Shown in pieces: positions 89 to 10,376 of a stretch of 64,000 bases of DNA. The DNA is from Escherichia coli (lineage in GTDB: Bacteria; Pseudomonadota; Gammaproteobacteria; Enterobacterales; Enterobacteriaceae), in assembly GCF_024298765.1 (NCBI RefSeq), contig NZ_CP101210.1; one strand, given 5' to 3'. Every line of letters begins with the position of its first letter. The stretch's first letter is position 1. The notes beneath the pieces were generated by a model that was not told the origin of the DNA, searched no databases, and worked only from the letters and a program-made list of their open reading frames with translations. The position numbers and the translations under genes were made by a program.

Positions 89-1534
89 ATGTCAAATAGG
101 TGTGCTTCTATGAATGAGCCAGCTAATCGTACAGTAAATAATTTGAGAAAGAGCGGAGACCTGCAAGGGGCTTGGGAGTTTGGTTTTCAAGCGTTGCAGG
201 CAGCTCCCCAAGATACTTACTTGAAAGGTGCTTTATTTTGGGTGTGTTATGAGTTTCTTAAGCACCAGCTTGAAAATCTAAATAAGCGAGCGAGTTCTTC
301 AAACAACTATCGTCCTACTGATTTTGAATTTGAGCAAATAGAGAACTTGCTGCAAACCATAGTAAATTTAGATATTGCTACTGGCGGCCTAGAGTACAAA
401 ATGCTGCTGGTTCAGTTTAAGAAGAGTTTGGAATGGTTTCCAACCTTGATTCACCTTGTGCTTCGACATCAAACTGTACTATTTGATGATGAGGCTAAAA
501 CACCTTTTCAAGCTGAAAAAGGTGAAGTGCCAAGTTTGATGCTCTCAACAGCACGCCAAGTGGCGAGTGCATGGCTTAGAGCACGAGAGTATTGGCATCT
601 AGATCTTAACCAAGTGATGGCATTTATTAACCAAACACGCGAGCAAGCCTCTGACACTAAACATATGATGTGGCTTGATTACGACCAAGCGAAGTGCCTT
701 GTTGTTGCGGGCCAATACGATCAGGCTCGCGAACTCATTCTACCCATTTTAAGAAAGAAGCAAAAAGAGTCTTGGGCTTGGGGAGCGTTGGCTGCTACTT
801 ATTCAAAACAAGATCAGCGTTTAGCAATGAAGTTTTTTGCTAGGGGAATAGTATCCGCACATGACGTTACTTTTAGTTTACGTTTATTACAGGGAATTAT
901 TCCTTTATTACTTGCAAATCAACAGCAAGCTGAAGCCTCAATGTGCCTAAAAACGGCTATTGCGGCTTATCAAGCCCATGGGTGGAAGCTAAAGCAAGAG
1001 CTAGAACAGCTATCTATGCAGGCTTGGTATGATTCTGGTGTCGATGAGAAGCAACTGAGTCCTTTTTTAAACTCTATTTCTCACGACGCTTTAAATTACT
1101 TGCATGGGCCGATGGAGAAGGTTGTTGCTATCGTAGAGAATATCCATAAATCCGGTAAAGGCTTTCAAGTATTCGTAAATAAGTCGACATCACTATCAGT
1201 TCGCATGGGGGTTCATAAAGGTAAGCAGAAACCTCAGGCTGGTGACTATGTCGAGCTATCCGTAGCGAGTGTTGATGGAAACAAAGAAGTAGTAGCTTCC
1301 TCATCGTCCAAGCAAGTAGATATGGCTGATGTTTCGTATGTAGAGGGTACGCTTCGAATAGCACCCAAAGGCTTCGGATTTGTCGAGGATACTTTTGTTC
1401 CTCCCTTTGTTATAGGTAATTTAAAAAATGAAACAAAAGTCAGAGCACTCCGTATCATGAGTTGGGACAAATCTAAAGCTCGCCACAACTGGAAAGCGAT
1501 TAAGTTAACGGAACTAAATTTTAATGAAGACTAA
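89..1534 (+). CDS. hypothetical protein, 481 aa, with C-terminal cold-shock/OB-fold-like segment
   Basis: Long ORF with RBS-compatible context. C-terminal segment contains a KGFGFV motif resembling the cold-shock domain KGFGFI signature, preceded by a second beta-rich segment. No enzymatic motif recognised. Confidence 0.5.
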   Translation: MSNRCASMNEPANRTVNNLRKSGDLQGAWEFGFQALQAAPQDTYLKGALFWVCYEFLKHQLENLNKRASSSNNYRPTDFEFEQIENLLQTIVNLDIATGGLEYKMLLVQFKKSLEWFPTLIHLVLRHQTVLFDDEAKTPFQAEKGEVPSLMLSTARQVASAWLRAREYWHLDLNQVMAFINQTREQASDTKHMMWLDYDQAKCLVVAGQYDQARELILPILRKKQKESWAWGALAATYSKQDQRLAMKFFARGIVSAHDVTFSLRLLQGIIPLLLANQQQAEASMCLKTAIAAYQAHGWKLKQELEQLSMQAWYDSGVDEKQLSPFLNSISHDALNYLHGPMEKVVAIVENIHKSGKGFQVFVNKSTSLSVRMGVHKGKQKPQAGDYVELSVASVDGNKEVVASSSSKQVDMADVSYVEGTLRIAPKGFGFVEDTFVPPFVIGNLKNETKVRALRIMSWDKSKARHNWKAIKLTELNFNED

Positions 1535-1591
1535 GTCACTTTCCGGCGAAATCGAGTTAGGACAGGCTCAAGAATTAGCCGAGGTCGAATA

Positions 1592-1688
1592 ATGGCAACC
1601 CGAGTAGAAATGATTATCGAAACGCTCAAGGCGAACCCCGACAAGAAGTTTACTGCTCGGGACTTAGCCAAAGAATTTGTGCTTCGAT
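1592..1688 (+). pseudogene. 5' fragment of an ORF (MATRVEMIIETLKANPDKKFTARDLAKEFV...) truncated by the IS903 insertion
   Basis: ATG at 1592 preceded by GAGG, 58 bp after the stop of the 481-aa ORF. Reading frame runs directly into the IS903 left inverted repeat at 1689. No continuation recognisable after the IS. Confidence 0.4.
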
Positions 1689-2745
1689 GGCTTTGTTGAA
1701 TAAATCGAACTTTTGCTGAGTTGAAGGATCAGATCACGCATCTTCCCGACAACGCAGACCGTTCCGTGGCAAAGCAAAAGTTCAAAATCACCAACTGGCC
1801 CACCTACAATAAAGCCCTCATCAACCGTGGCTCCATAACTTTCTGGCTGGATGATGAAGCTATTCAGGCCTGGTATGAGTCAGCAACACCTTCTTCACGA
1901 GGCAGACCTCAGCGCTATTCTGACCTTGCCATCACGACTGTGCTGGTCATTAAACGCGTATTCAGGCTGACCCTGCGCGCTGCGCAGGGCTTTATTGATT
2001 CCATTTTTTCTCTGATGAACGTTCCGCTACGCTGCCCGGATTACAGCTGTGTCAGCAGGCGGGCAAAGTCGGTTAATGTCAGTTTCAAAACGCCCACCCG
2101 GGGTGAAATCGCACATCTGGTGATTGATTCCACCGGGCTGAAGGTCTTCGGTGAAGGCGAGTGGAAAGTCAAAAAGCATGGCCAGGAACGCCGCCGTATC
2201 TGGCGTAAGCTGCATCTCGCCGTTGACAGTAAAACACATGAAATCATCTGTGCAGACCTGTCGCTGAACAACGTTACGGACTCAGAGGCCTTCCCCGGGT
2301 TAATCCGGCAAACCCACCGGAAAATCAGGTCAGCCGCCGCCGATGGCGCTTACGATACCCGGCTATGTCACGATGAACTGCGGCGTAAGAAAATCAGCGC
2401 GCTTATCCCTCCCCGAAAAGGTGCGGGTTACTGGCCCGGTGAATATGCAGACCGTAACCGTGCAGTGGCTAATCAGCGAATGACCGGGAGTAATGCGCGG
2501 TGGAAATGGACAACAGATTACAACCGTCGCTCGATAGCGGAAACGGCGATGTACCGGGTAAAACAGCTGTTCGGGGGGGCACTGACGCTGCGTGACTACG
2601 ATGGTCAGGTTGCGGAGGCTATGGCCCTGGTACGAGCGCTGAACAAAATGACGAAAGCAGGTATACCTGAAAGCGTGCGTATTGCCTGAAAACACAACCC
2701 GCTACGGGGGAGACTTACCCGAAATCTGATTTATTCAACAAAGCC
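1689..2745 (+). mobile_element. IS903 (IS5 family), complete 1057-bp element
   Basis: Terminal inverted repeats GGCTTTGTTGAATAAATC at 1689 and its reverse complement ending at 2745. Internal transposase ORF. No 9-bp target duplication in flanks (TGCTTCGAT vs GTTGCCAAA), suggesting an adjacent deletion. Confidence 0.9.
1721..2689 (+). CDS. IS903 transposase
   Basis: Translation (MKDQITHLPDNADRSVAKQKFKITNWPTYNKALINRGS...) is the IS903/IS5-family DDE transposase as recalled. Confidence 0.9.
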   Translation: MKDQITHLPDNADRSVAKQKFKITNWPTYNKALINRGSITFWLDDEAIQAWYESATPSSRGRPQRYSDLAITTVLVIKRVFRLTLRAAQGFIDSIFSLMNVPLRCPDYSCVSRRAKSVNVSFKTPTRGEIAHLVIDSTGLKVFGEGEWKVKKHGQERRRIWRKLHLAVDSKTHEIICADLSLNNVTDSEAFPGLIRQTHRKIRSAAADGAYDTRLCHDELRRKKISALIPPRKGAGYWPGEYADRNRAVANQRMTGSNARWKWTTDYNRRSIAETAMYRVKQLFGGALTLRDYDGQVAEAMALVRALNKMTKAGIPESVRIA

Positions 2746-3282: not shown

Positions 3283-3846
3283 TCAGTTATGTCGTGGTCG
3301 GCCGCGGTTACTTTTTTCGGGAAGCCTGCTACGGCCCAGAATAATACCGTGTTCTTTCTGATCTTGTTTAGCCAGATAGCTAAGGGCGTAACGTAAGTCG
3401 TCTACCGCAGACTTATCACTATAGTGAATCACGTGATCGATACGCACCGGGTATTTATCTTTAGCCCGGCACAGGTGAAAATAACCCTCCCCTTCCGTGA
3501 TCCGCCTCCAGATATCCCCCAGTTGCCTGGATATCTGATAAGAGTTCTTGTGACGTTGCCCATCCAGATAGCCGATAAAATGAATATGAAGCCCTTTGTC
3601 TGGTGTATATTCCATAACCCAGTAATATCCTGCCAACATCGTCTGGGTTTCGCTAAGTAAACGGTATATTTCCATACACATACTGTGCTTACAGGAATGC
3701 CCGAAACTGGGCGTGTCTTTCCTGTAGGCAAAATCAATTCTGAAAGGTAACAGTTTAGAAAAACGTTGAAACAATCCCTCCATGTGTTCATTCACATCTT
3801 TCAGAATCGCGAAATTCATTTCGTAATTGGGATTGGCATTATACAT
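3283..3846 (-). CDS. YagK/YfjJ-family (inovirus Gp2-like) prophage protein
   Basis: 187-aa ORF whose sequence resembles the YagK/YfjJ family found in CP4-type cryptic prophages. Sits in the same order as in CP4-57 (alpA, yfjI, yfjJ). Confidence 0.5.
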   Translation of the reverse strand: MYNANPNYEMNFAILKDVNEHMEGLFQRFSKLLPFRIDFAYRKDTPSFGHSCKHSMCMEIYRLLSETQTMLAGYYWVMEYTPDKGLHIHFIGYLDGQRHKNSYQISRQLGDIWRRITEGEGYFHLCRAKDKYPVRIDHVIHYSDKSAVDDLRYALSYLAKQDQKEHGIILGRSRLPEKSNRGRPRHN

Positions 3847-4735
3847 TTTATAGTCCTTACTTTATAAAATTCACAGGAAGAGGGAATTACGTAAATACTG
3901 AGAGTACATAAACGCCGTACCACGGCATTAATAAACGAGGTAACCAGCAGTACAGACAACCTGATAAAACTGTTTTGTATTACCGCATCGCTGTAACAAG
4001 GTAATACTTCAGAATTCAGTGAGGCTCTCTTAAACAGAGGACCAGTAATAATTACAATGGCAAAAACACACCTCAATATAATTGAATTTAAGAAAGCACC
4101 ATTCAATCACTTACAGGAAGTAATCTGATCTTCACAAAAGTCAGCTATCGAATAGCCACAGGCAACACCGCTATTGATACCCCACACACCATAAGAAGAT
4201 TATTCCATACAGAAAAAATTATATTTACCCATACTTATAAACTGTAACGGAGCTATGACGTACGAACTAAAGACACTACACTCTAATAGAGTTCTGGTAC
4301 CTAACCAGTGTTAAATACGAACCAGACATACATTCTATGGATTAATTTTCTCAATATTACGCTATGAGTGTAGTAACATAATTTACACCACATACACCAC
4401 CACACTGTAGTTAGTATATGGGGAGACATTACGATAAAAAGAGATAAGTTATACCACAGATACCACCACACAATACCATAACTCCCATTAATAATACTAA
4501 TTAACCTAAATTATTTATTGAATACGAAAACAATGAAGGTCCCACCTCACCTCAGACTAAAGCCGACAATATCCTGAGCAACACTCTATCCAATAGTAAA
4601 TAGTGGTTACACCAGTTATATTTACTGACTGACCTGTACCAGAGTTTTCTAATACAACAACGCTGACATGGTAAAGGCATTAGTCTCCTCCGCAAGTAGC
4701 AGAGGAGACTATATGTTACTCAACGATTAAGTCGT

Positions 4736-6187
4736 TCAGAGGTCAAAGTTAGGTGCGACACACAACGTTTTTCCCTCAATAACCGGTACAACTCTGTTTT
4801 GTTCATACAGTAAATCCAGTAACCAGTTGATTTTATCCTTTTTCCGGAAACGGTTCGGACCACGCTGTAAAATATCATTTTTTTTCATACAGGGGATCCC
4901 CTTCTCAATGCAATAGCTTTTTATCCAGTTGAAAAGTTCAAGCTCCTCTGGAATGAGTCGCACAGGTACGGTCAGGGCAGGGTTGTCAAAAGTTAACGGA
5001 TTAGACAACCGCACATACTCATTACCGTACCATATTGCTAATTCTCTCGCCATTTCTGCAGTGTAAGGGGAAATGTCCCCCTCTTCACCGCTCGAATGGT
5101 GAATAAGTCCTGCCAGTCTTGCCATATACTCTGCATTTTTAGCAGCATATTCCCGGCAATGTCTTAAAGGCCCCAATCCCCCCAGCTTCGATTCCACATC
5201 GTTGTAATAATCCGTCCAGATTCTGGCAGCCTGAGGAGAAAAGTGAAGGCAACGTCGTTCACCACTCATCGCCAGATTTTCATCAATAAGCTCATTGATC
5301 CTCTGTTCAAACAAATCCTGATACTGTGATGAATAATTATCTCCGGTTATTATCCTTGTCCCCTGCGTTGATGTTGGTTGACACATCAAAAACCTTGCAT
5401 GATGTCCTGACGTTTTCACAAGTTCTTTTTTTCGCGTACAAAAACCTTTCTGGTAAACATCAGGCTGAATCATCACCGATACCGTCAGTCTTGGATCCTT
5501 CAAAATAATTCCGGGAGATGATTTCCTGTCGATGAAAAGAGAACCACCATCCCACAAAGAGTTAAGTATTCCAAGTTTACTCATTGCCCGGCCATCAAAA
5601 ATTATTCCTCCTTCACTGGATACAAGAGCAAAAGAGCGATTGCTGTCGGAATAATATTTTAACATTCCCTCTATCGTTGTCTCATTGAAAATTGTCCGGC
5701 GTATCTGCGGCGGAACAGGACATTTATTCAGATGTCTTTTAAGCTCTGACTCTGTTGCCTTACAATCTTTACCGGCGCGAATTTCTTTATGCAATTTTGA
5801 CTCCAGTGCTTTTTGCTTTTGCTCCCATATTTCCTTTTCTGTACTGTAATTCTCAACCAGTTTCGCGTATTCTTCCGCCAGGGCTTCATCCCTGAGATAA
5901 AATGCTTTCATAAACACTTTATCCACGGTCGTTTTCCTTTCACCGGAATCAGCCAGAATCAGAGAGTAAAGATTAACAGGCCCACGTAAATTTCCAGGTC
6001 TGCACACGTCAATCTGATTCTGACAGGCACTTGAGAACGCTGTTAATGCGGATGTCGCCACCATAGCCAAAGGTGCCTGTGTATTTTTTTGAGTTTCAAT
6101 TATTGCATTTCTCACCAGCGGTGGTAGTGCATATACCGGATAAGGATTTTCTGGTGCAAGTAAGCACATAAAAGCCTCTCTTTTCAT
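4736..6187 (-). CDS. YfjI-like prophage protein
   Basis: 483-aa ORF immediately downstream of an AlpA-family gene in the canonical CP4-57-like order. Family assignment is by position and size recall only. Confidence 0.45.
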   Translation of the reverse strand: MKREAFMCLLAPENPYPVYALPPLVRNAIIETQKNTQAPLAMVATSALTAFSSACQNQIDVCRPGNLRGPVNLYSLILADSGERKTTVDKVFMKAFYLRDEALAEEYAKLVENYSTEKEIWEQKQKALESKLHKEIRAGKDCKATESELKRHLNKCPVPPQIRRTIFNETTIEGMLKYYSDSNRSFALVSSEGGIIFDGRAMSKLGILNSLWDGGSLFIDRKSSPGIILKDPRLTVSVMIQPDVYQKGFCTRKKELVKTSGHHARFLMCQPTSTQGTRIITGDNYSSQYQDLFEQRINELIDENLAMSGERRCLHFSPQAARIWTDYYNDVESKLGGLGPLRHCREYAAKNAEYMARLAGLIHHSSGEEGDISPYTAEMARELAIWYGNEYVRLSNPLTFDNPALTVPVRLIPEELELFNWIKSYCIEKGIPCMKKNDILQRGPNRFRKKDKINWLLDLLYEQNRVVPVIEGKTLCVAPNFDL

Positions 6188-6417
6188 TAATGGGTTAGTA
6201 AAGCAGCAGCAACTCCCGCTATAATAGCGAAATAGCTGCTGTTCAGACCTAATGTTCTGAGAAATACAGAATATCTGTAGATCTGATGTTTAATAAACCG
6301 ATAAGGTTAATTCAGTTCATACTGTGTTATTTACCACGAAATATCATTCATGTTTCTCATTCTTAACACCTCCTAAAATTATTTCACTAACACCTTCCCC
6401 CCGGTCTTTTTCCTTTC

Positions 6418-6645
6418 TCAGGAATCAGCCAGAACCATAGTGTAAATATTAACAGGCCCACGTAAATTTCCAGGTCTGCACACGTCAATCTGATTCTGAC
6501 AGGCAATTGACATCGCTGTTAATAATGATGTGGTAGTCATAGCCAGAGATGCTTTTTCATTGTGTTGAGTTTCAATTATTGCATTTCCAGTCATTGATGG
6601 TTGCGCATATACTGGATACGGAGTATCCGGTTTGATGTAAGACAT
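6418..6645 (-). pseudogene. truncated duplicate of the 5' end of the YfjI-like gene
   Basis: 75-aa ORF whose sequence (PYPVYA...NAIIETQ...ACQNQIDVCRPGNLRGPVN...LADS) parallels residues 14-82 of the 483-aa ORF. DNA 6400-6650 is about 80 percent identical to 5935-6190. Confidence 0.6.
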
Positions 6646-6750
6646 AAATATTTCCTTTTTTCGTAATAACTTTCGGTTATAGCAGCTATTTCCGCTACAA
6701 TAGCAACAATAGCTGCTATACAGACTGGATATACTGAAAATACAGACAGT

Positions 6751-6999
6751 TCATCTGGTCTGTATCCAGCAAAGAAGGTCACTTAACAACCATCCGCAAG
6801 ATTTCTTTCCGATAGACTTACGTGGTGGAAATTTTCCCTCCCGTTCAAGTTTCCACGCTTGTGTACGAGAAATTGACGTGATCTCATATCGTTCCTTTTC
6901 ACGTACCAGTCTGTCGCATTCAATCCCATAAGCTTTCAAAATGACCAGACGCTGTTCATCTGTTAATGGAAGCCACATACTACCCTCCTGATATATCAA
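6751..6999 (-). CDS. alpA: AlpA-family phage transcriptional regulator
   Basis: Small ORF with AlpA-like HTH segment (ITSISRTQAWKLEREGKFPPRKSIGKKSCGWLLSDLLCWIQTR). True start probably the internal Met (MWLPL). Confidence 0.6.
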   Translation of the reverse strand: MIYQEGSMWLPLTDEQRLVILKAYGIECDRLVREKERYEITSISRTQAWKLEREGKFPPRKSIGKKSCGWLLSDLLCWIQTR

Positions 7000-7669
7000 T
7001 ACTTTTTATTTCCGGCATGAGCATGAAATGACTAAGTTTCCCGGATAAACAATGAGTGAAAGTCACTATCATTCATCCAGTCAACGCCTTGCAAATAAAA
7101 TGTAATACTATGATTTTTATAGGTCAAAATACTAAATTACAATGTTAAAATGGCTTTTAACAGAAAAAATAAAGACATATGGAACCAAATAAAAACAAGC
7201 CACGACCAATAAAAACAAAAGATTAATATTAAAAATCCATTATGACGATTTTTGTTGACTAAAATTAGGTTGGGATATATAAATAAATCCATGTAAAATT
7301 CAAACAAGGCATAGAGGAGCCGCAGGAAGGTGAAATATTTCCATCTAATTTGTGATAATCATCACAAAAATAAGCTACAACAAGCGGAGGAAAAGACAAT
7401 CTGTTGCTGAACAGACAGAAGCAGGCTACGAATGATCGGAAAATGAAGCAAATACGCTTATACAGAAGACGCAGAGGTAACTGACGGAGACAATCACAAT
7501 CAGGAGAAAATTATCGTAAATAATGTATAAAATCTCAGGATATAAACAAATGTACACAAGCTATCCACGTAATCAGCGGCTGGCTCAGGATTGACGTTTC
7601 ATTTCAGTGGACAACATCGATTCTGTCTGACAGCGGACCAATATGTAGCAAGCAGAAACTTCTGACATC

Positions 7670-9307
7670 ATGGTAACTCGGACAATGCAACAAAAGTATC
7701 AGTATGATCGTGTTTTATCCGGCGAACTCCACCCATTCCCTGGCATATACGAGGCGGTTTCCGAACAAATCCTTTTGCTCATTTTTAAAGCACGTCAACT
7801 ATATCAGGATCCAGAATATCGCCCCTGGTTTGAAGAACAGCACAGAGTACTCTCTGCATTACGTGCCAATACAGAGCTCCTGAGAATCTTTAGAGAACAA
7901 AGAAGCGCTGAAGAACCAAAGCTTACTATTGAAGAGTCTACCTCCCCCCAACCCACTCCTTCTGCTCTTACAGATGCGCTTAATGTGATGTGCCATTTAT
8001 ACAATGGTTTTGATGAAGGAAATATCAGTCTGAAAACCTGGGGGGCGATGCAAGAGGTACAGACAACATCAACCTTTATCAGCCCAGGACCGAGAACCTG
8101 GAAAACACCTGAACTGGCAAAGTTTGTAGGAGATGATTTATTTAATATTCTGACTGAATGTAAGGCCTGGAGTTCACCAATTCCAGCAGAAACCCGACAG
8201 GGGTATTGCCATCAGGATCTGTCTGTTGCACACTCCTGCACCTCAGAGTTACTGGCACACCTGAATCAATATCATGAAATTGATGAATCAGCAATACTTG
8301 CCAGAGTTATTGGTATAACAGTTAACGGATTCTACAAGAAAAATAATACAGACCTTCCAGAATGGCTATCCCCCTTTAAAGAGGAACATAAAATATTCAA
8401 AGATTGTCCGGAGCAAAATACCGGGGATGTAATCAGACGGAAAGAACAACTGTTGAAAACAGGACGTACAGAATTCGTGAATAATTTGTGTCGGGTCGCC
8501 AACTGGTATGAAATTGAGTCAATATACGATGAATACGTCCGTCTTTATGCCAATGAAATCATTGACTGGTTCAACAAAACCATGAAGTATTTTAAACCAA
8601 CAGATTTTATCCGATATACATGGAAATTCGCAACAGTTACTCCGGATAAAGATACAGAAACCGGGCATACAACTGCATGGGAAAAGGATTATTGCCAGAT
8701 AACCATACAACGTGATGAACTTCTGAGGTTGATTCACACTAATACCCTTCAGGATGCTGTAATTTATCTTTGTCATTGTCTGCAGGAGAAATACAAGAAA
8801 TCATCCCAGAATGAGACAGAGTTTCCAGGAATAAAACCTCCGGCATCAGAGAGTGAAATTAATATAACAGATAATTTTGAATTTCATTCTCTTCTGGAGC
8901 TAAGTAAAGATAATGAGAAGCGGCTGGAAACATTTCAAAAATGGTATGAAAAAAATAAAGTTTTGTTAGAAAGTCATAAACAAAAACGAACAGAGAAGAT
9001 TGACGTTGCCGTACGACTTGTAGGGCTGAAAGCCTATGATCTGCATGAAGGGATTCCGGATAGTCCAAAACGAAAAGTTAAAGATGGCATAAATGAAGAC
9101 ATCAAAGCCGATACCAGTTTACGCCTGTCAAAGACAAATATAAGTGATACGTCGCTAAACCGTTATCGCCGCACTGTTAAGGAGATTATCAATAACGAAA
9201 TCGACGCATTCCTGTTGGAACAGAAGAAAAAAAATAAAAGATTTCCCTACAGTGAAGATAGAGATGTGATTCGCCCTTTATGGGGAAAATGCCTGACCGG
9301 GCAGTAG
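7670..9307 (+). CDS. hypothetical protein, 545 aa, AT-rich, no recognisable motif
   Basis: Long uninterrupted ORF in AT-rich DNA preceded by about 650 bp of AT-rich non-coding sequence. No Walker, HTH or catalytic motif recognised. Confidence 0.5.
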   Translation: MVTRTMQQKYQYDRVLSGELHPFPGIYEAVSEQILLLIFKARQLYQDPEYRPWFEEQHRVLSALRANTELLRIFREQRSAEEPKLTIEESTSPQPTPSALTDALNVMCHLYNGFDEGNISLKTWGAMQEVQTTSTFISPGPRTWKTPELAKFVGDDLFNILTECKAWSSPIPAETRQGYCHQDLSVAHSCTSELLAHLNQYHEIDESAILARVIGITVNGFYKKNNTDLPEWLSPFKEEHKIFKDCPEQNTGDVIRRKEQLLKTGRTEFVNNLCRVANWYEIESIYDEYVRLYANEIIDWFNKTMKYFKPTDFIRYTWKFATVTPDKDTETGHTTAWEKDYCQITIQRDELLRLIHTNTLQDAVIYLCHCLQEKYKKSSQNETEFPGIKPPASESEINITDNFEFHSLLELSKDNEKRLETFQKWYEKNKVLLESHKQKRTEKIDVAVRLVGLKAYDLHEGIPDSPKRKVKDGINEDIKADTSLRLSKTNISDTSLNRYRRTVKEIINNEIDAFLLEQKKKNKRFPYSEDRDVIRPLWGKCLTGQ

Positions 9308-9393: not shown

Positions 9394-9990
9394 TTATGCG
9401 GCTTTTCCATTAACAGATTCGGCCACAAGAACAACACCGTGTTTGTTTCGATCAGGATGTTCACTCCAGATTTCTGATTCAGGAATACTTTCCCCATCAT
9501 AGCAGATCCGATCACCATCAAACGAATAATACCGTGCGGAATCTGTATCTAAGATAAACACCTTAAAATTCGTTGAACGACGCGCTATATGCTGCCAGAG
9601 GGCTTTACCTCCTTCATATTGCTCGTTATCACTTAATAGTATAACGCCTGCTTTTGTGGCTATTGTTTCATAAACAAACGTAGCAAGGCTAACATCACGT
9701 ACAGCGCCATCGACAACAATCCCTTCAATCTGAGCAACGTCCTGTTCTTCCCAGAATTTCCGGACAAACACCCCTTCAAGCTGTGAACGACGCTGAAGCT
9801 CCAGAGTGGCAACAACCTTATGGCGAATATCACCATCAATAACAGAAGGTGCAGCTTCGATTACCGCAGCGAACGGAGTCTTTGGATCCCAGATGATCTG
9901 GTAAAGCACACCCTGAATAGTTACTCCATCCAGTATCGAAAAACGACGAGCTACAGTAGCAGGGGAGTAAGACATTGGAATGACAGCCAT
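9394..9990 (-). CDS. hypothetical protein, 198 aa
   Basis: ORF convergent with the 545-aa gene, located between it and thrW where an island integrase would be expected. No family recognised. Confidence 0.45.
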   Translation of the reverse strand: MAVIPMSYSPATVARRFSILDGVTIQGVLYQIIWDPKTPFAAVIEAAPSVIDGDIRHKVVATLELQRRSQLEGVFVRKFWEEQDVAQIEGIVVDGAVRDVSLATFVYETIATKAGVILLSDNEQYEGGKALWQHIARRSTNFKVFILDTDSARYYSFDGDRICYDGESIPESEIWSEHPDRNKHGVVLVAESVNGKAA

Positions 9991-10300
9991 TTTATGGCCT
10001 AAAATTTGAAAACATCAGTATCAATACTGACCTCATCAGTCTGAGCATATATTGATAAAGTTTTTATGTTTACACTCAATAAATACCTTGCCAAACAACT
10101 AATAGCGATGTCTACATTGCCATTCGACATGCTTACAATTTTTGTCAACAAGAAAGTGAATTTATATCAACGGTAAGAAGTAAACACGAGGACACCAAAA
10201 CCAAATGTACACACTTTTGTGCTTTGTGTCCCCTGTGTGTACCCAAATGACAAACTGCAAGAAAATCTAGGCACACACTTATCTAACTTATTGATTTAAA

Positions 10301-10376
10301 TGGTGCCGATAATAGGAGTCGAACCTACGACCTTCGCATTACGAATGCGCTGCTCTACCAACTGAGCTATATCGGC
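10301..10376 (-). tRNA. thrW: tRNA-Thr (anticodon CGT)
   Basis: Reverse complement reads GCCGATATAGCTCAGTTGGTAGAGCAGCGCATTCGTAATGCG...TTCGACTCCTATTATCGGCACCA: cloverleaf with CGT anticodon and encoded CCA. Position next to proA matches thrW. Confidence 0.95.

What the first reader, a model, noticed from the sequence alone, without database searches (positions are those of the whole stretch)
5935..6740. Local segmental duplication of the 5' end and upstream region of the YfjI-like gene
Roughly 330 bp including the first 80 codons of the 483-aa gene and its upstream leader are duplicated in tandem at about 80 percent identity, producing a 75-aa fragment ORF. The divergence implies an old duplication. 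It may provide an alternative promoter or an antisense regulatory element between alpA and the main gene.
Basis: seen in the sequence. Interest (0 to 1): 0.3.

Follow-up and report, generated by a model that had tools for sequence, protein, structure and literature searches.

The report
Decaying duplicate of yfjI gene start
Between the regulator gene alpA and the helicase-like gene yfjI of an E. coli genomic island lies an ancient, decaying tandem copy of the alpA end, the leader and the yfjI start; it is an ordinary gene relic, and only a short palindromic DNA site in it looks preserved.

Summary
Window 5898-6270 and 6374-6746 are direct repeats, 78% identical over 383 aligned columns, with a period of 476 bp.

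The 103 bp between them are not foreign. They are a nearly erased copy of the last 95 nt of alpA (44% identity in the expected register; 0 of 2000 shuffles reach this). The event was therefore a true tandem duplication of about 472-476 bp, from alpA codon ~44 to yfjI codon ~91.

- **Age and spread.** The structure occurs in about 1337 of 5426 complete E. coli genomes, in three island lineages and at two insertion sites. Unconstrained parts have drifted to 42-55% identity.
- **Coding fragment.** It is a pseudogene. Of 60 carrier loci, 48 have a stop at codon 15. Other lineages carry independent indels. dN/dS between lineages is about 0.7-1.2. The 75-aa ORF is confined to the window's own lineage.
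- **Identical block.** The 58-nt identical block reflects gene conversion.
- **Single-copy relatives.** These are secondary deletions by recombination between the copies.
- **Conserved element.** A four-hexamer palindrome (GCTATT-type) lies upstream of yfjI in all alpA-yfjI modules examined, including K-12 CP4-57 and Yersinia. Both copies here retain it.

No promoter, terminator or known RNA family was found. Interest is low.

The parts
4736..6169 (-). Intact yfjI (DUF3987 helicase-family protein, 477 aa from the PGAP start; the mechanical ORF runs on to the ATG at 6187)
   Evidence: Pfam DUF3987 E = 1.5e-85. RefSeq annotates it 'YfjI family protein'. A PriCT-DUF3987 protein was shown to be a 5'-3' helicase (PMC11724360).
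5898..6373 (-). Downstream repeat unit (c1), 476 nt: yfjI codons 1-91, the leader, and the alpA-3' relic
6374..6845 (-). Upstream repeat unit (c2), 472 nt: the yfjI 5' fragment, leader', and the live 3' third of alpA
6374..6645 (-). yfjI 5' pseudogene fragment. The 75-aa ORF is 6418-6645; an in-frame TGA replaces the GGT of codon 76; homology continues to 6374.
   Evidence: Pfam DUF3987 E = 9e-9. PGAP calls it a pseudogene, 'missing C-terminus'. Orthologous copies are broken at codon 15 and by indels. dN/dS is 0.7-1.2.
6279..6373 (-). Relic of the last ~95 nt of alpA (the apparent 'spacer'). It contains AGGAGG (6369-6374) and a 9-codon mini-ORF, MRNMNDISW (6331-6360).
   Evidence: 42 of 95 positions match alpA 6751-6845 in the register set by the flanking alignment; shuffles give 25 +/- 4, and 0 of 2000 reach the observed value. 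Offset 472 is the best of 400 offsets. The mini-ORF block has 4 of 44 variable columns against 26% in the fragment (p about 0.02, chosen post hoc).
6204..6241 (.). Palindrome H2 (yfjI-proximal): CAGCAGCTATTTCGCTATTATAGCGGGAGTTGCTGCTG on the gene strand. It is a cluster of GCTATT / ATAGC hexamers.
   Evidence: The same element lies 45-55 nt upstream of yfjI in K-12 CP4-57, Yersinia, Citrobacter and IMG/VR loci.
6678..6720 (.). Palindrome H2' (alpA-proximal copy): ATAGCAGCTATTGTTGCTATTGTAGCGGAAATAGCTGCTAT on the gene strand.
   Evidence: Inverted repeat I2, pattern match and fold z = -4.5. It is 75-86% identical to H2, while its flanks are 42-55% identical.
6740..6765 (-). Small hairpin around the alpA stop codon (ATACAGAC-N10-GTCTGTAT, followed by TTTT). 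Its degenerate copy lies in c1 at about 6246-6290.
   Evidence: It was not scored as a terminator.
5971..6030 (-). 58-nt block identical to 6447-6506 (encodes ACQNQIDVCRPGNLRGPVN); a gene-conversion tract.
   Evidence: dS is 0.04 for codons 46-90 against 0.49 for codons 1-45. Three genome-specific states shared by both copies cluster in this block. The block is not identical between copies in other lineages.
6751..6978 (-). Intact alpA-family HTH gene (75 aa from the PGAP start).
   Evidence: Pfam Phage_AlpA E = 1.7e-13; RefSeq annotation.

Best explanation
This is the relic of one ancient tandem duplication of a ~472-476-bp unit that ran from the middle of alpA (codon ~44), through the alpA-yfjI leader, to codon ~91 of yfjI.

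The duplication left this order on the gene strand: intact alpA, leader', a yfjI 5' fragment, an alpA 3' relic, the leader, then intact yfjI.

The two partial genes have no function and are decaying:
- the alpA relic is almost erased;
- the yfjI fragment carries different stops and indels in different lineages;
- it is occasionally patched by short gene conversion from the live gene, which explains the 58-nt identical block in this window.

Recombination between the two copies sometimes deletes one unit and restores a single-copy locus.

The 75-aa ORF is an accident of the window's lineage. The only part likely to act is the four-hexamer palindrome upstream of yfjI, which is kept in both copies. 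It is most likely a protein-binding DNA site (an operator or origin-like site of the island's yfjI-yfjJ module). The duplication's one plausible effect is to give yfjI two such sites 476 bp apart and a leader of ~580 nt instead of ~95 nt.

Shown: the duplication, its extent, its age and spread, the decay, the conversion and the deletion derivative. Inferred: that the palindrome binds a protein and that both copies matter.
For: **Repeat and its extent**
- define the repeat.
- The alpA relic matches at 42/95 (shuffles 25 +/- 4; 0 of 2000 reach it), and the register is the best of 400 offsets.

**Spread**
- The same junctions occur in 1337 of 5426 complete E. coli genomes.
- They occur in three lineages, at thrW and at the serX-side site.
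- All 54 metagenome loci that hold the relic also have the fragment in front of it.

**Decay**
- 48 of 60 loci have a stop at codon 15.
- Independent indels: a 10-nt deletion in one lineage; a 1-nt insertion and a 12-nt deletion in another.
- Within the window's lineage, residues that are invariant in real YfjI vary.
- dN/dS between lineages is 0.73-1.24 for the fragment, against 0.41-0.49 for the live 5' end.
- 26% of fragment columns are variable, against 10% in the live copy (p = 6e-6).

**Conversion**
- dS is 0.04 against 0.49 in the two halves, and genome-specific states shared by both copies cluster in the block.

**Deletion derivative**
- In L002 and L068 the ribosome-binding-site region is the c1 ortholog and the alpA side is the c2 ortholog, with the switch inside the palindrome.

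**Palindrome**
- It is present once per alpA-yfjI module where YfjI is only 40-44% identical and AlpA is of a different subtype.
- The hexamers are constant and the spacers vary.
- H2 and H2' are 75-86% identical with flanks at 42-55%.
- It matches only twice in the 64-kb window, where 0 matches are expected.
Against: - Conservation of H2', H2 and the relic among the three lineages is only marginally better than in the pseudogene (14%, 13% and 16% variable columns against 26%; p = 0.07-0.12). The scan for conserved 40-nt windows is not significant after permutation. Selection on the second palindrome therefore rests mainly on the deep c1-c2 comparison.
- The alpA relic is far more diverged (44% identity) than the rest of the unit. 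Explaining this needs near-saturation, possibly plus later replacement of the alpA allele. Module swapping at this junction is seen, but replacement is not shown for this case.
- No transcript, binding or expression data were available.
Confidence: 0.8

Rival explanations
1. Junction of two diverged islands. The upstream copy is the remnant of a different yfjI lineage, left when two related elements (for example, integrated in tandem) recombined illegitimately and the DNA between them was lost. On this view the 22% divergence predates the event.
For: Islands of this family are mosaics with breakpoints exactly at this junction. The serX-type island has an unrelated alpA and left arm, with the breakpoint at the H1'/H2' border. 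L002 has 86% alpA but 95-97% yfjI.
Against: - The segment after the fragment is an alpA 3' relic in the register expected for a head-to-tail duplication.
- No full-length yfjI in 5426 E. coli genomes is closer to copy 2 than copy 1 is; the best is about 79%.
- dN/dS between the reconstructed ancestral copies is 0.79, not the roughly 0.4 seen between live lineages.
Confidence: 0.1
2. Co-opted regulatory leader. The duplicated leader acts in cis through two operator or promoter copies, or through the strong Shine-Dalgarno sequence plus 9-codon mini-ORF in the relic (attenuation-like control), or through an antisense transcript. This would tune yfjI-yfjJ expression after alpA.
For: - Both palindromes are retained, with fixed copy-specific differences, while their flanks are nearly randomised.
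- The SD plus mini-ORF block is the most conserved 40-nt window between lineages (2 variable columns; 4/44 against 26%, p about 0.02).
- Both leaders fold better than shuffles (z = -3.4 and -4.5).
Against: - No promoter-like or terminator-like site lies in either leader and no Rfam family matches.
- The conserved-window scan is not significant after permutation (P(min <= 2) = 0.064).
- The mini-ORF segment was picked post hoc and is derived from alpA coding sequence.
- Single-copy deletion derivatives exist in nature and keep intact genes.
- The mini-ORF is absent from other alpA-yfjI modules.
Confidence: 0.15
3. Functional small protein. The 75-aa N-terminal YfjI fragment is made and modulates the full-length helicase, for example as a dominant-negative partner.
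For: The ORF is intact in the window's lineage (12 of 60 loci), has an ATG in the same place as yfjI behind an AAGGAAA-type ribosome-binding site, and ends just before the GERKT P-loop-like motif.
Against: - The ORF is broken at codon 15 in 80% of the carrier loci sampled.
- dN/dS is about 1.
- Within the intact lineage, changes hit residues that are invariant in YfjI (DVC[R/N/S][P/L/S]G).
- PGAP calls it a pseudogene.
Confidence: 0.03

Closest known systems
alpA-yfjI-yfjJ module of the E. coli K-12 cryptic prophage CP4-57 (and related tRNA-linked islands such as SpLE1 / OI-43/48 of O157:H7)
   Same: The gene order is the same: AlpA-family HTH, DUF3987/YfjI, YfjJ-type ('inovirus-type Gp2') protein. 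The same four-hexamer palindrome lies about 50 nt upstream of yfjI.
   Different: CP4-57 has a single leader of 128 nt and no yfjI fragment. Its YfjI is only 42% identical and its AlpA is of a different subtype (31% over 29 aa). The window's thrW island has no integrase next to the tRNA.
Ordinary partial tandem gene duplication leaving a truncated pseudogene
   Same: It has direct head-to-tail units, one truncated copy of each gene at the junction, neutral decay, gene conversion from the live copy, and loss by recombination between the repeats.
   Different: It has persisted unusually long and spread widely for an unselected repeat: about 25% of complete E. coli genomes, in three lineages. One short non-coding site is kept in both copies.
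AlpA-dependent antitermination in Pseudomonas aeruginosa (alpBCDE; PMC7969949, PMC9371919)
   Same: An AlpA-family protein is encoded just upstream of the genes it might control, with a structured leader in between.
   Different: - The Pseudomonas AlpA binding element GGGACGN5GGTA is absent from 5,800-7,700.
- No intrinsic terminator lies in either leader.
- The conserved site here is a hexamer palindrome shared by modules with very different AlpA proteins.
Iteron-type replication sites of satellite phage P4 (ori and crr). This comparison is from my own knowledge and was not tested.
   Same: There are clusters of short repeats near a helicase-type replication gene of a P4-like integrative element. 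Here two clusters lie 476 bp apart.
   Different: The repeat sequence is different, the helicase family is different (DUF3987, not P4 alpha), and there is no evidence that this island replicates or that the palindrome is an origin.

Membership tests
Tandem (head-to-tail) segmental duplication | Two direct copies of the same segment with significant similarity | tested here: met
   78% identity over 383 columns, period 476.
Tandem (head-to-tail) segmental duplication | Units abut without foreign DNA, so the sequence after the end of unit 2 is homologous to the start of unit 2 | tested here: met
   The apparent spacer matches the alpA 3' end at 42/95 in the expected register (0 of 2000 shuffles reach this), and that register is the best of 400 offsets. 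Unanchored local alignment had missed it.
Tandem (head-to-tail) segmental duplication | The copies are each other's closest relatives | tested here: met
   No yfjI in 5426 E. coli genomes is more than about 79% identical to copy 2. Other species were sampled only sparsely.
Pseudogene / gene relic | Truncated relative to full-length homologues | tested here: met
   91 of 477 codons are present. The fragment covers Pfam DUF3987 profile positions 2-45 of 364.
Pseudogene / gene relic | Disabling mutations that differ between orthologous copies | tested here: met
   A stop at codon 15 in 48 of 60 loci; a 10-nt deletion, a 1-nt insertion and a 12-nt deletion in other lineages; a TGA at codon 76 in this window.
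Pseudogene / gene relic | Neutral substitution pattern (dN/dS near 1, faster than the live copy) | tested here: met
   dN/dS is 0.73-1.24 against 0.41-0.49. Variable columns are 26% against 10%, p = 6e-6. The counts are small.
Conserved small ORF / functional N-terminal fragment | Reading frame kept intact across carriers | tested here: not met
   It is intact only in the window-type lineage, 12 of 60 loci.
AlpA (P. aeruginosa type) antitermination unit | AlpA binding element GGGACGN5GGTA within a promoter | tested here: not met
   No match with up to 2 mismatches between 5,800 and 7,700.
AlpA (P. aeruginosa type) antitermination unit | Intrinsic terminator in the leader | tested here: not met
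   No terminator-like site lies in either leader. The one site found, 6962-6946, is inside alpA. The hairpins lack a U-run.
Known RNA family (sRNA, riboswitch, leader) | Match to an Rfam covariance model | tested here: not met
   Nothing reaches a gathering score. The only hits are chance microRNA-precursor models at E >= 0.13 on the palindrome. Esr41 of SpLE1 maps elsewhere, between z1181 and z1182 (PMC8565820).
Protein-binding repeat cluster (operator or iteron) | Several copies of one short motif in fixed arrangement, with motif sequence conserved and spacers variable across distant relatives | tested here: met
   GCTATT-N3-GCTATT-N0-1-(A)ATAGC-N3-AATAGC appears in 13 elements from modules whose YfjI is 40-95% identical.
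Protein-binding repeat cluster (operator or iteron) | Demonstrated binding by a protein and an effect on expression or replication | not testable with these tools
   This needs EMSA, ChIP or footprinting and reporter or replication assays.

The most novel reading that the evidence does not exclude
The duplication was kept because it gives the island two copies of the family-wide four-hexamer palindrome, 476 bp apart. Together these would form a paired control or origin-like region for the yfjI (helicase)-yfjJ (Rep-like) module, for example through looping between operators or a P4-style ori/crr pair. The conserved SD plus mini-ORF in the alpA relic would add a translational layer.
Probability: 0.12. 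Interest if true: 0.45.

Novelty: new member of a known kind. Interest (0 to 1): 0.15.

Why it matters
The main value is for annotation.

- **ORF status.** The 75-aa 'DUF3987 domain-containing protein' ORFs that RefSeq carries in many E. coli genomes, including O157:H7, are pieces of one decaying relic and should not be treated as genes.
- **Evolutionary example.** The locus shows the full life cycle of a partial tandem duplication inside a mobile island: decay, short-tract gene conversion, deletion back to single copy, and module swapping at the same junction.
- **Lead worth following.** The conserved hexamer palindrome upstream of yfjI occurs in alpA-yfjI modules from K-12 CP4-57 to Yersinia. 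It is a concrete, testable candidate for the control or replication site of these very common but functionally obscure islands.

Tried and rejected
1. **Spacer as foreign DNA.** Unanchored local alignments of 6271-6373 against alpA, the HTH gene of the serX-type island, and downstream yfjI were not significant. This was superseded by the anchored test, which shows an alpA relic.
2. **Spacer homologous to the K-12 alpA-yfjI intergenic mini-ORF.** The resemblance (GGTGTTA...CATGAAT) is not significant; 147 of 1000 shuffles reach it.
3. **Search for the spacer in another context.** One metagenome scan gave 54 loci, all from the same three lineages and all with the fragment upstream.
4. **Genome-contig scan with YfjI.** It returned only two distant loci, Yersinia rohdei and Citrobacter, because the peptide patterns were too specific. 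These were useful only for the palindrome.
5. **The search for homologous proteins with the fragment.** It returned only short ORFs and was not informative about a donor lineage.
6. **Coding potential across the palindrome.** The hydrophobic AIVA-type peptides it encodes have no conserved frame and no start codon.
7. **RNA hairpin or terminator reading of H1 and H2.** There is no U-run, stem sequences are conserved rather than covarying, and strand preference is inconsistent.
8. **P. aeruginosa AlpA binding element.** Absent.
9. **Esr41 sRNA of SpLE1.** It lies at a different location.
10. **A third palindrome-like site in the yfjI-yfjJ gap (about 4140-4180).** It is not conserved in other lineages or modules.
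11. **NCBIfam.** It gave no hits for any of the six proteins.
Full report
**Context**

The window is E. coli chromosome, 100% identical over the query to strain 13P460A. The finding lies in a genomic island inserted next to tRNA-Thr(CGU) thrW (10301-10376) and proA.

The island genes on the minus strand are:
- a 198-aa hypothetical (9394-9990);
- an AlpA-family HTH gene (6751-6978; Pfam Phage_AlpA E = 1.7e-13);
- a 75-aa ORF (6418-6645);
- yfjI (4736-6169; Pfam DUF3987 E = 1.5e-85);
- after an 890-bp gap, a YfjJ-type gene that RefSeq names 'inovirus-type Gp2 protein' (3283-3846).

A 545-aa hypothetical (7670-9307) lies on the plus strand. A PriCT-DUF3987 protein has been shown to be a 5'-3' helicase (PMC11724360). 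PGAP already flags the 75-aa ORF as a pseudogene, 'missing C-terminus'.

Yes.
- The repeat finder gives 5898-6191 vs 6374-6667 at 78% identity with spacing 476, plus a 33-nt continuation.
- A gapped local alignment gives 5898-6270 vs 6374-6746, with 298 of 383 columns identical.
- The fragment's ATG (6645) lies exactly 476 nt from the ATG at 6169, which PGAP uses for yfjI.
- The repeat therefore holds ~91 codons plus ~100 nt of leader.
- The fragment's frame ends at a TGA that replaces the GGT of codon 76, just before the GERKT motif. Homology continues for another ~15 codons.

**What lies between the copies**

The 103 nt at 6271-6373 did not align with anything in unanchored tests. The alignment of the adjoining leader implies a register of 476 minus a 4-nt indel.

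In that register:
- Offset 472 gives 45 of 103 matches, the highest of 400 offsets (null 28 +/- 4).
- The last 95 nt of alpA match the segment at 42 of 95, against 25 +/- 4 for shuffles; 0 of 2000 shuffles reach the observed value.
- Values are similar for the spacers of other lineages and for other alpA alleles.

The 'spacer' is therefore an almost erased copy of the alpA 3' end. The event was a genuine head-to-tail duplication of about 472-476 bp, from alpA codon ~44 to yfjI codon ~91. The units are 5898-6373 and 6374-6845.

**Age and spread**

- The relic segment is found in 1337 of 5426 complete E. coli genomes at 87-100% identity, always unannotated or under the fragment call.
- Representatives fall into three lineages with identical junctions:
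  - the window type at thrW;
  - a second thrW type (MRE162, MB30, PK5074);
  - a type beside ycdU/dgcT in O157:H7, ATCC 25922 and PSUO2. This third type has an unrelated HTH gene and left arm, and the breakpoint sits just upstream of the alpA-proximal palindrome.
- All 54 gut-metagenome contigs that hold the relic belong to these same three types and have the fragment in front of it.

Within one genome, identity between the two units varies by segment:

| Segment | Identity between units |
|---|---|
| alpA relic | 44% |
| Ribosome-binding-site region | 42-55% |
| Codons 1-45 | 67-70% |
| Palindrome | 75-86% |

Unconstrained parts are thus near saturation. The duplication is several times older than the split of the three lineages, whose fragments differ by 14-20%.

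**The coding fragment is a pseudogene**

- From the fragment's ATG, 48 of 60 carrier loci reach a stop at codon 15. Only the window type (12 loci) keeps 75 codons. These differ from one another at residues that are invariant in real YfjI (DVC[R/N/S][P/L/S]G).
- The other lineages also carry a 10-nt deletion, or a 1-nt insertion plus a 12-nt deletion.
- dN/dS between lineages is 0.73-1.24 for the fragment, against 0.41-0.49 for the live 5' end in the two comparisons with enough changes.
- The fragment has 26% variable columns against 10% in the live copy (p = 6e-6).
- The short 'DUF3987 domain-containing protein' or 'hypothetical protein' genes that RefSeq carries here (38, 49 and 65 aa) are pieces of this relic.

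**The 58-nt identical block**

- Between the reconstructed ancestral copies, dS is 0.49 for codons 1-45 but 0.04 for codons 46-90.
- The only three sites where both copies of one genome share a state not seen in other genomes cluster in this block.
- In the other lineages the block is not identical between copies.
- This is the signature of short gene-conversion tracts from the live gene, not of a nucleotide-level functional element.

**Single-copy relatives are secondary**

Strain 2014C-4423 (L002) and an IMG/VR contig (L068) have alpA directly followed by one leader and yfjI.
- Their ribosome-binding-site region is nearly identical to copy 1.
- Their alpA-side leader is nearly identical to copy 2.
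- The switch lies inside the palindrome.

Because these two segments differ by about 50% between the copies, the single-copy loci must descend from a duplicated ancestor by a 476-bp deletion through recombination between the repeats.

**What, if anything, is functional**

Negative results:
- Neither leader has a promoter-like site on the gene strand, and the count for the region equals the shuffle expectation.
- No terminator-like site lies in either leader.
- Rfam gives nothing at gathering scores, and only chance microRNA-precursor hits on the palindrome.
- The P. aeruginosa AlpA binding element is absent (PMC7969949).
- The SpLE1 sRNA Esr41 lies elsewhere.

The palindrome:
- Each leader holds a compound palindrome (6204-6241 and 6678-6720) built from GCTATT / AATAGC hexamers.
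- The same arrangement, GCTATT-N3-GCTATT-N0-1-(A)ATAGC-N3-AATAGC, lies 45-55 nt upstream of the yfjI start in K-12 CP4-57, Yersinia rohdei, a Citrobacter and six further IMG/VR loci.
- In those loci YfjI is only 40-44% identical, and AlpA belongs to two subtypes that share only 31% identity over 29 residues.
- Hexamer sequence is constant while the spacers vary. This fits a protein-binding DNA site rather than an RNA hairpin.
- In the 64-kb window the pattern occurs only at these two places, where 0 matches are expected.
- The two copies keep fixed copy-specific differences in all lineages, so recent conversion does not explain their similarity.

I infer that both have been under constraint. 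However, among the three lineages the excess conservation is only marginal (p = 0.07-0.12; permutation scan not significant).

The binding protein is unknown. Because the site is shared by modules with very different AlpA proteins, YfjI or YfjJ are at least as likely as AlpA. This is inference.

**The mini-ORF**

The alpA relic contains AGGAGG followed after 8 nt by ATG and nine codons (MRNMNDISW). This is the most conserved 40-nt stretch between lineages. The test is post hoc (p about 0.02), the sequence derives from alpA coding DNA, and other alpA-yfjI modules lack it. I treat it as a curiosity.

**Verdict**

- 'Old duplication' is right.
- The 75-aa ORF is a lineage-specific accident.
- The promoter/antisense idea has no support, although a cis effect of the second palindrome copy cannot be excluded.
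- This is an ordinary, already half-annotated gene relic. Interest is low.
- The family-wide palindrome upstream of yfjI is the one lead worth an experiment.

Noticed in passing
window 6204-6241 and 6678-6720; L011 3909-3945; L004 about 3930-3965; L069-L076 about 50 nt upstream of the DUF3987 gene: A four-hexamer palindrome (GCTATT-N3-GCTATT-(A)ATAGC-N3-AATAGC) is a constant feature of alpA-yfjI intergenic regions from E. coli K-12 CP4-57 to Yersinia and Citrobacter. It persists despite 40% YfjI identity and two different AlpA subtypes. It is a candidate operator or origin-like site; I did not find it described in the papers searched.
   Followed up: yes
window 6331-6374 (minus strand): A strong Shine-Dalgarno sequence (AGGAGG) plus a 9-codon mini-ORF (MRNMNDISW) lies inside the alpA relic. 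It is conserved in all three lineages, with only a synonymous change and TAA/TGA stop variation. The evidence for constraint is marginal and post hoc.
   Followed up: partly
window 6722-6766 vs L003/L006/L007 (serX-type islands); L002: The alpA | yfjI junction is a recurrent recombination breakpoint between island modules. The O157:H7 / ATCC 25922 type has an unrelated HTH gene, IS1 and integrase arm joined just upstream of the palindrome. L002 combines an 86%-identical alpA with a 95-97%-identical yfjI.
   Followed up: partly
window 9990-10301: The thrW island has no integrase between tRNA-Thr and the 198-aa gene. The related island in strain 2014C-4423 (L002) has a tyrosine recombinase at that position. 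The window's island is therefore probably immobilised.
   Followed up: no
window 3847-4735 (yfjI-yfjJ gap), especially 4378-4405 and 4444-4471: This is an 890-bp AT-rich non-coding gap (GC 35-39%). It holds two 28-nt direct repeats rich in ACCAC (GTGTGGTGG on the gene strand), 66 nt apart. The gap is poorly conserved between lineages (78-89%, only partly alignable). It is possibly an iteron or origin-like region of the module.
   Followed up: no
window 4681-4711: A 13-bp inverted repeat (TAGTCTCCTCCGC / GCAGAGGAGACTA, 92% complementary, 5-nt loop) lies about 25 nt downstream of the yfjI stop. It is a likely transcript-end hairpin.
   Followed up: no
window 4140-4180 (minus strand): An H2-like group of hexamers (AATAGCGG-N12-GCTATTCGATAGC) lies in the yfjI-yfjJ gap. 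It is not found in the other lineages or in K-12 or Yersinia, so it is probably chance.
   Followed up: yes
window 24254-24430 and 27185-27262: There are three Rfam naRNA4 (CssrE) matches above the gathering score on the minus strand. These are REP-type repeat elements unrelated to the finding.
   Followed up: no
window 89-2689: The island cargo next to the module differs between strains. Here it is a TPR protein (89-1534), an upstream ATP-dependent helicase (per the RefSeq annotation of the identical strain) and IS903B (1721-2689). In O157:H7 and 2014C-4423 the same position holds a gene that PGAP names 'TOTE conflict system archaeo-eukaryotic primase domain-containing protein'. This suggests a defence-cargo hotspot.
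   Followed up: no
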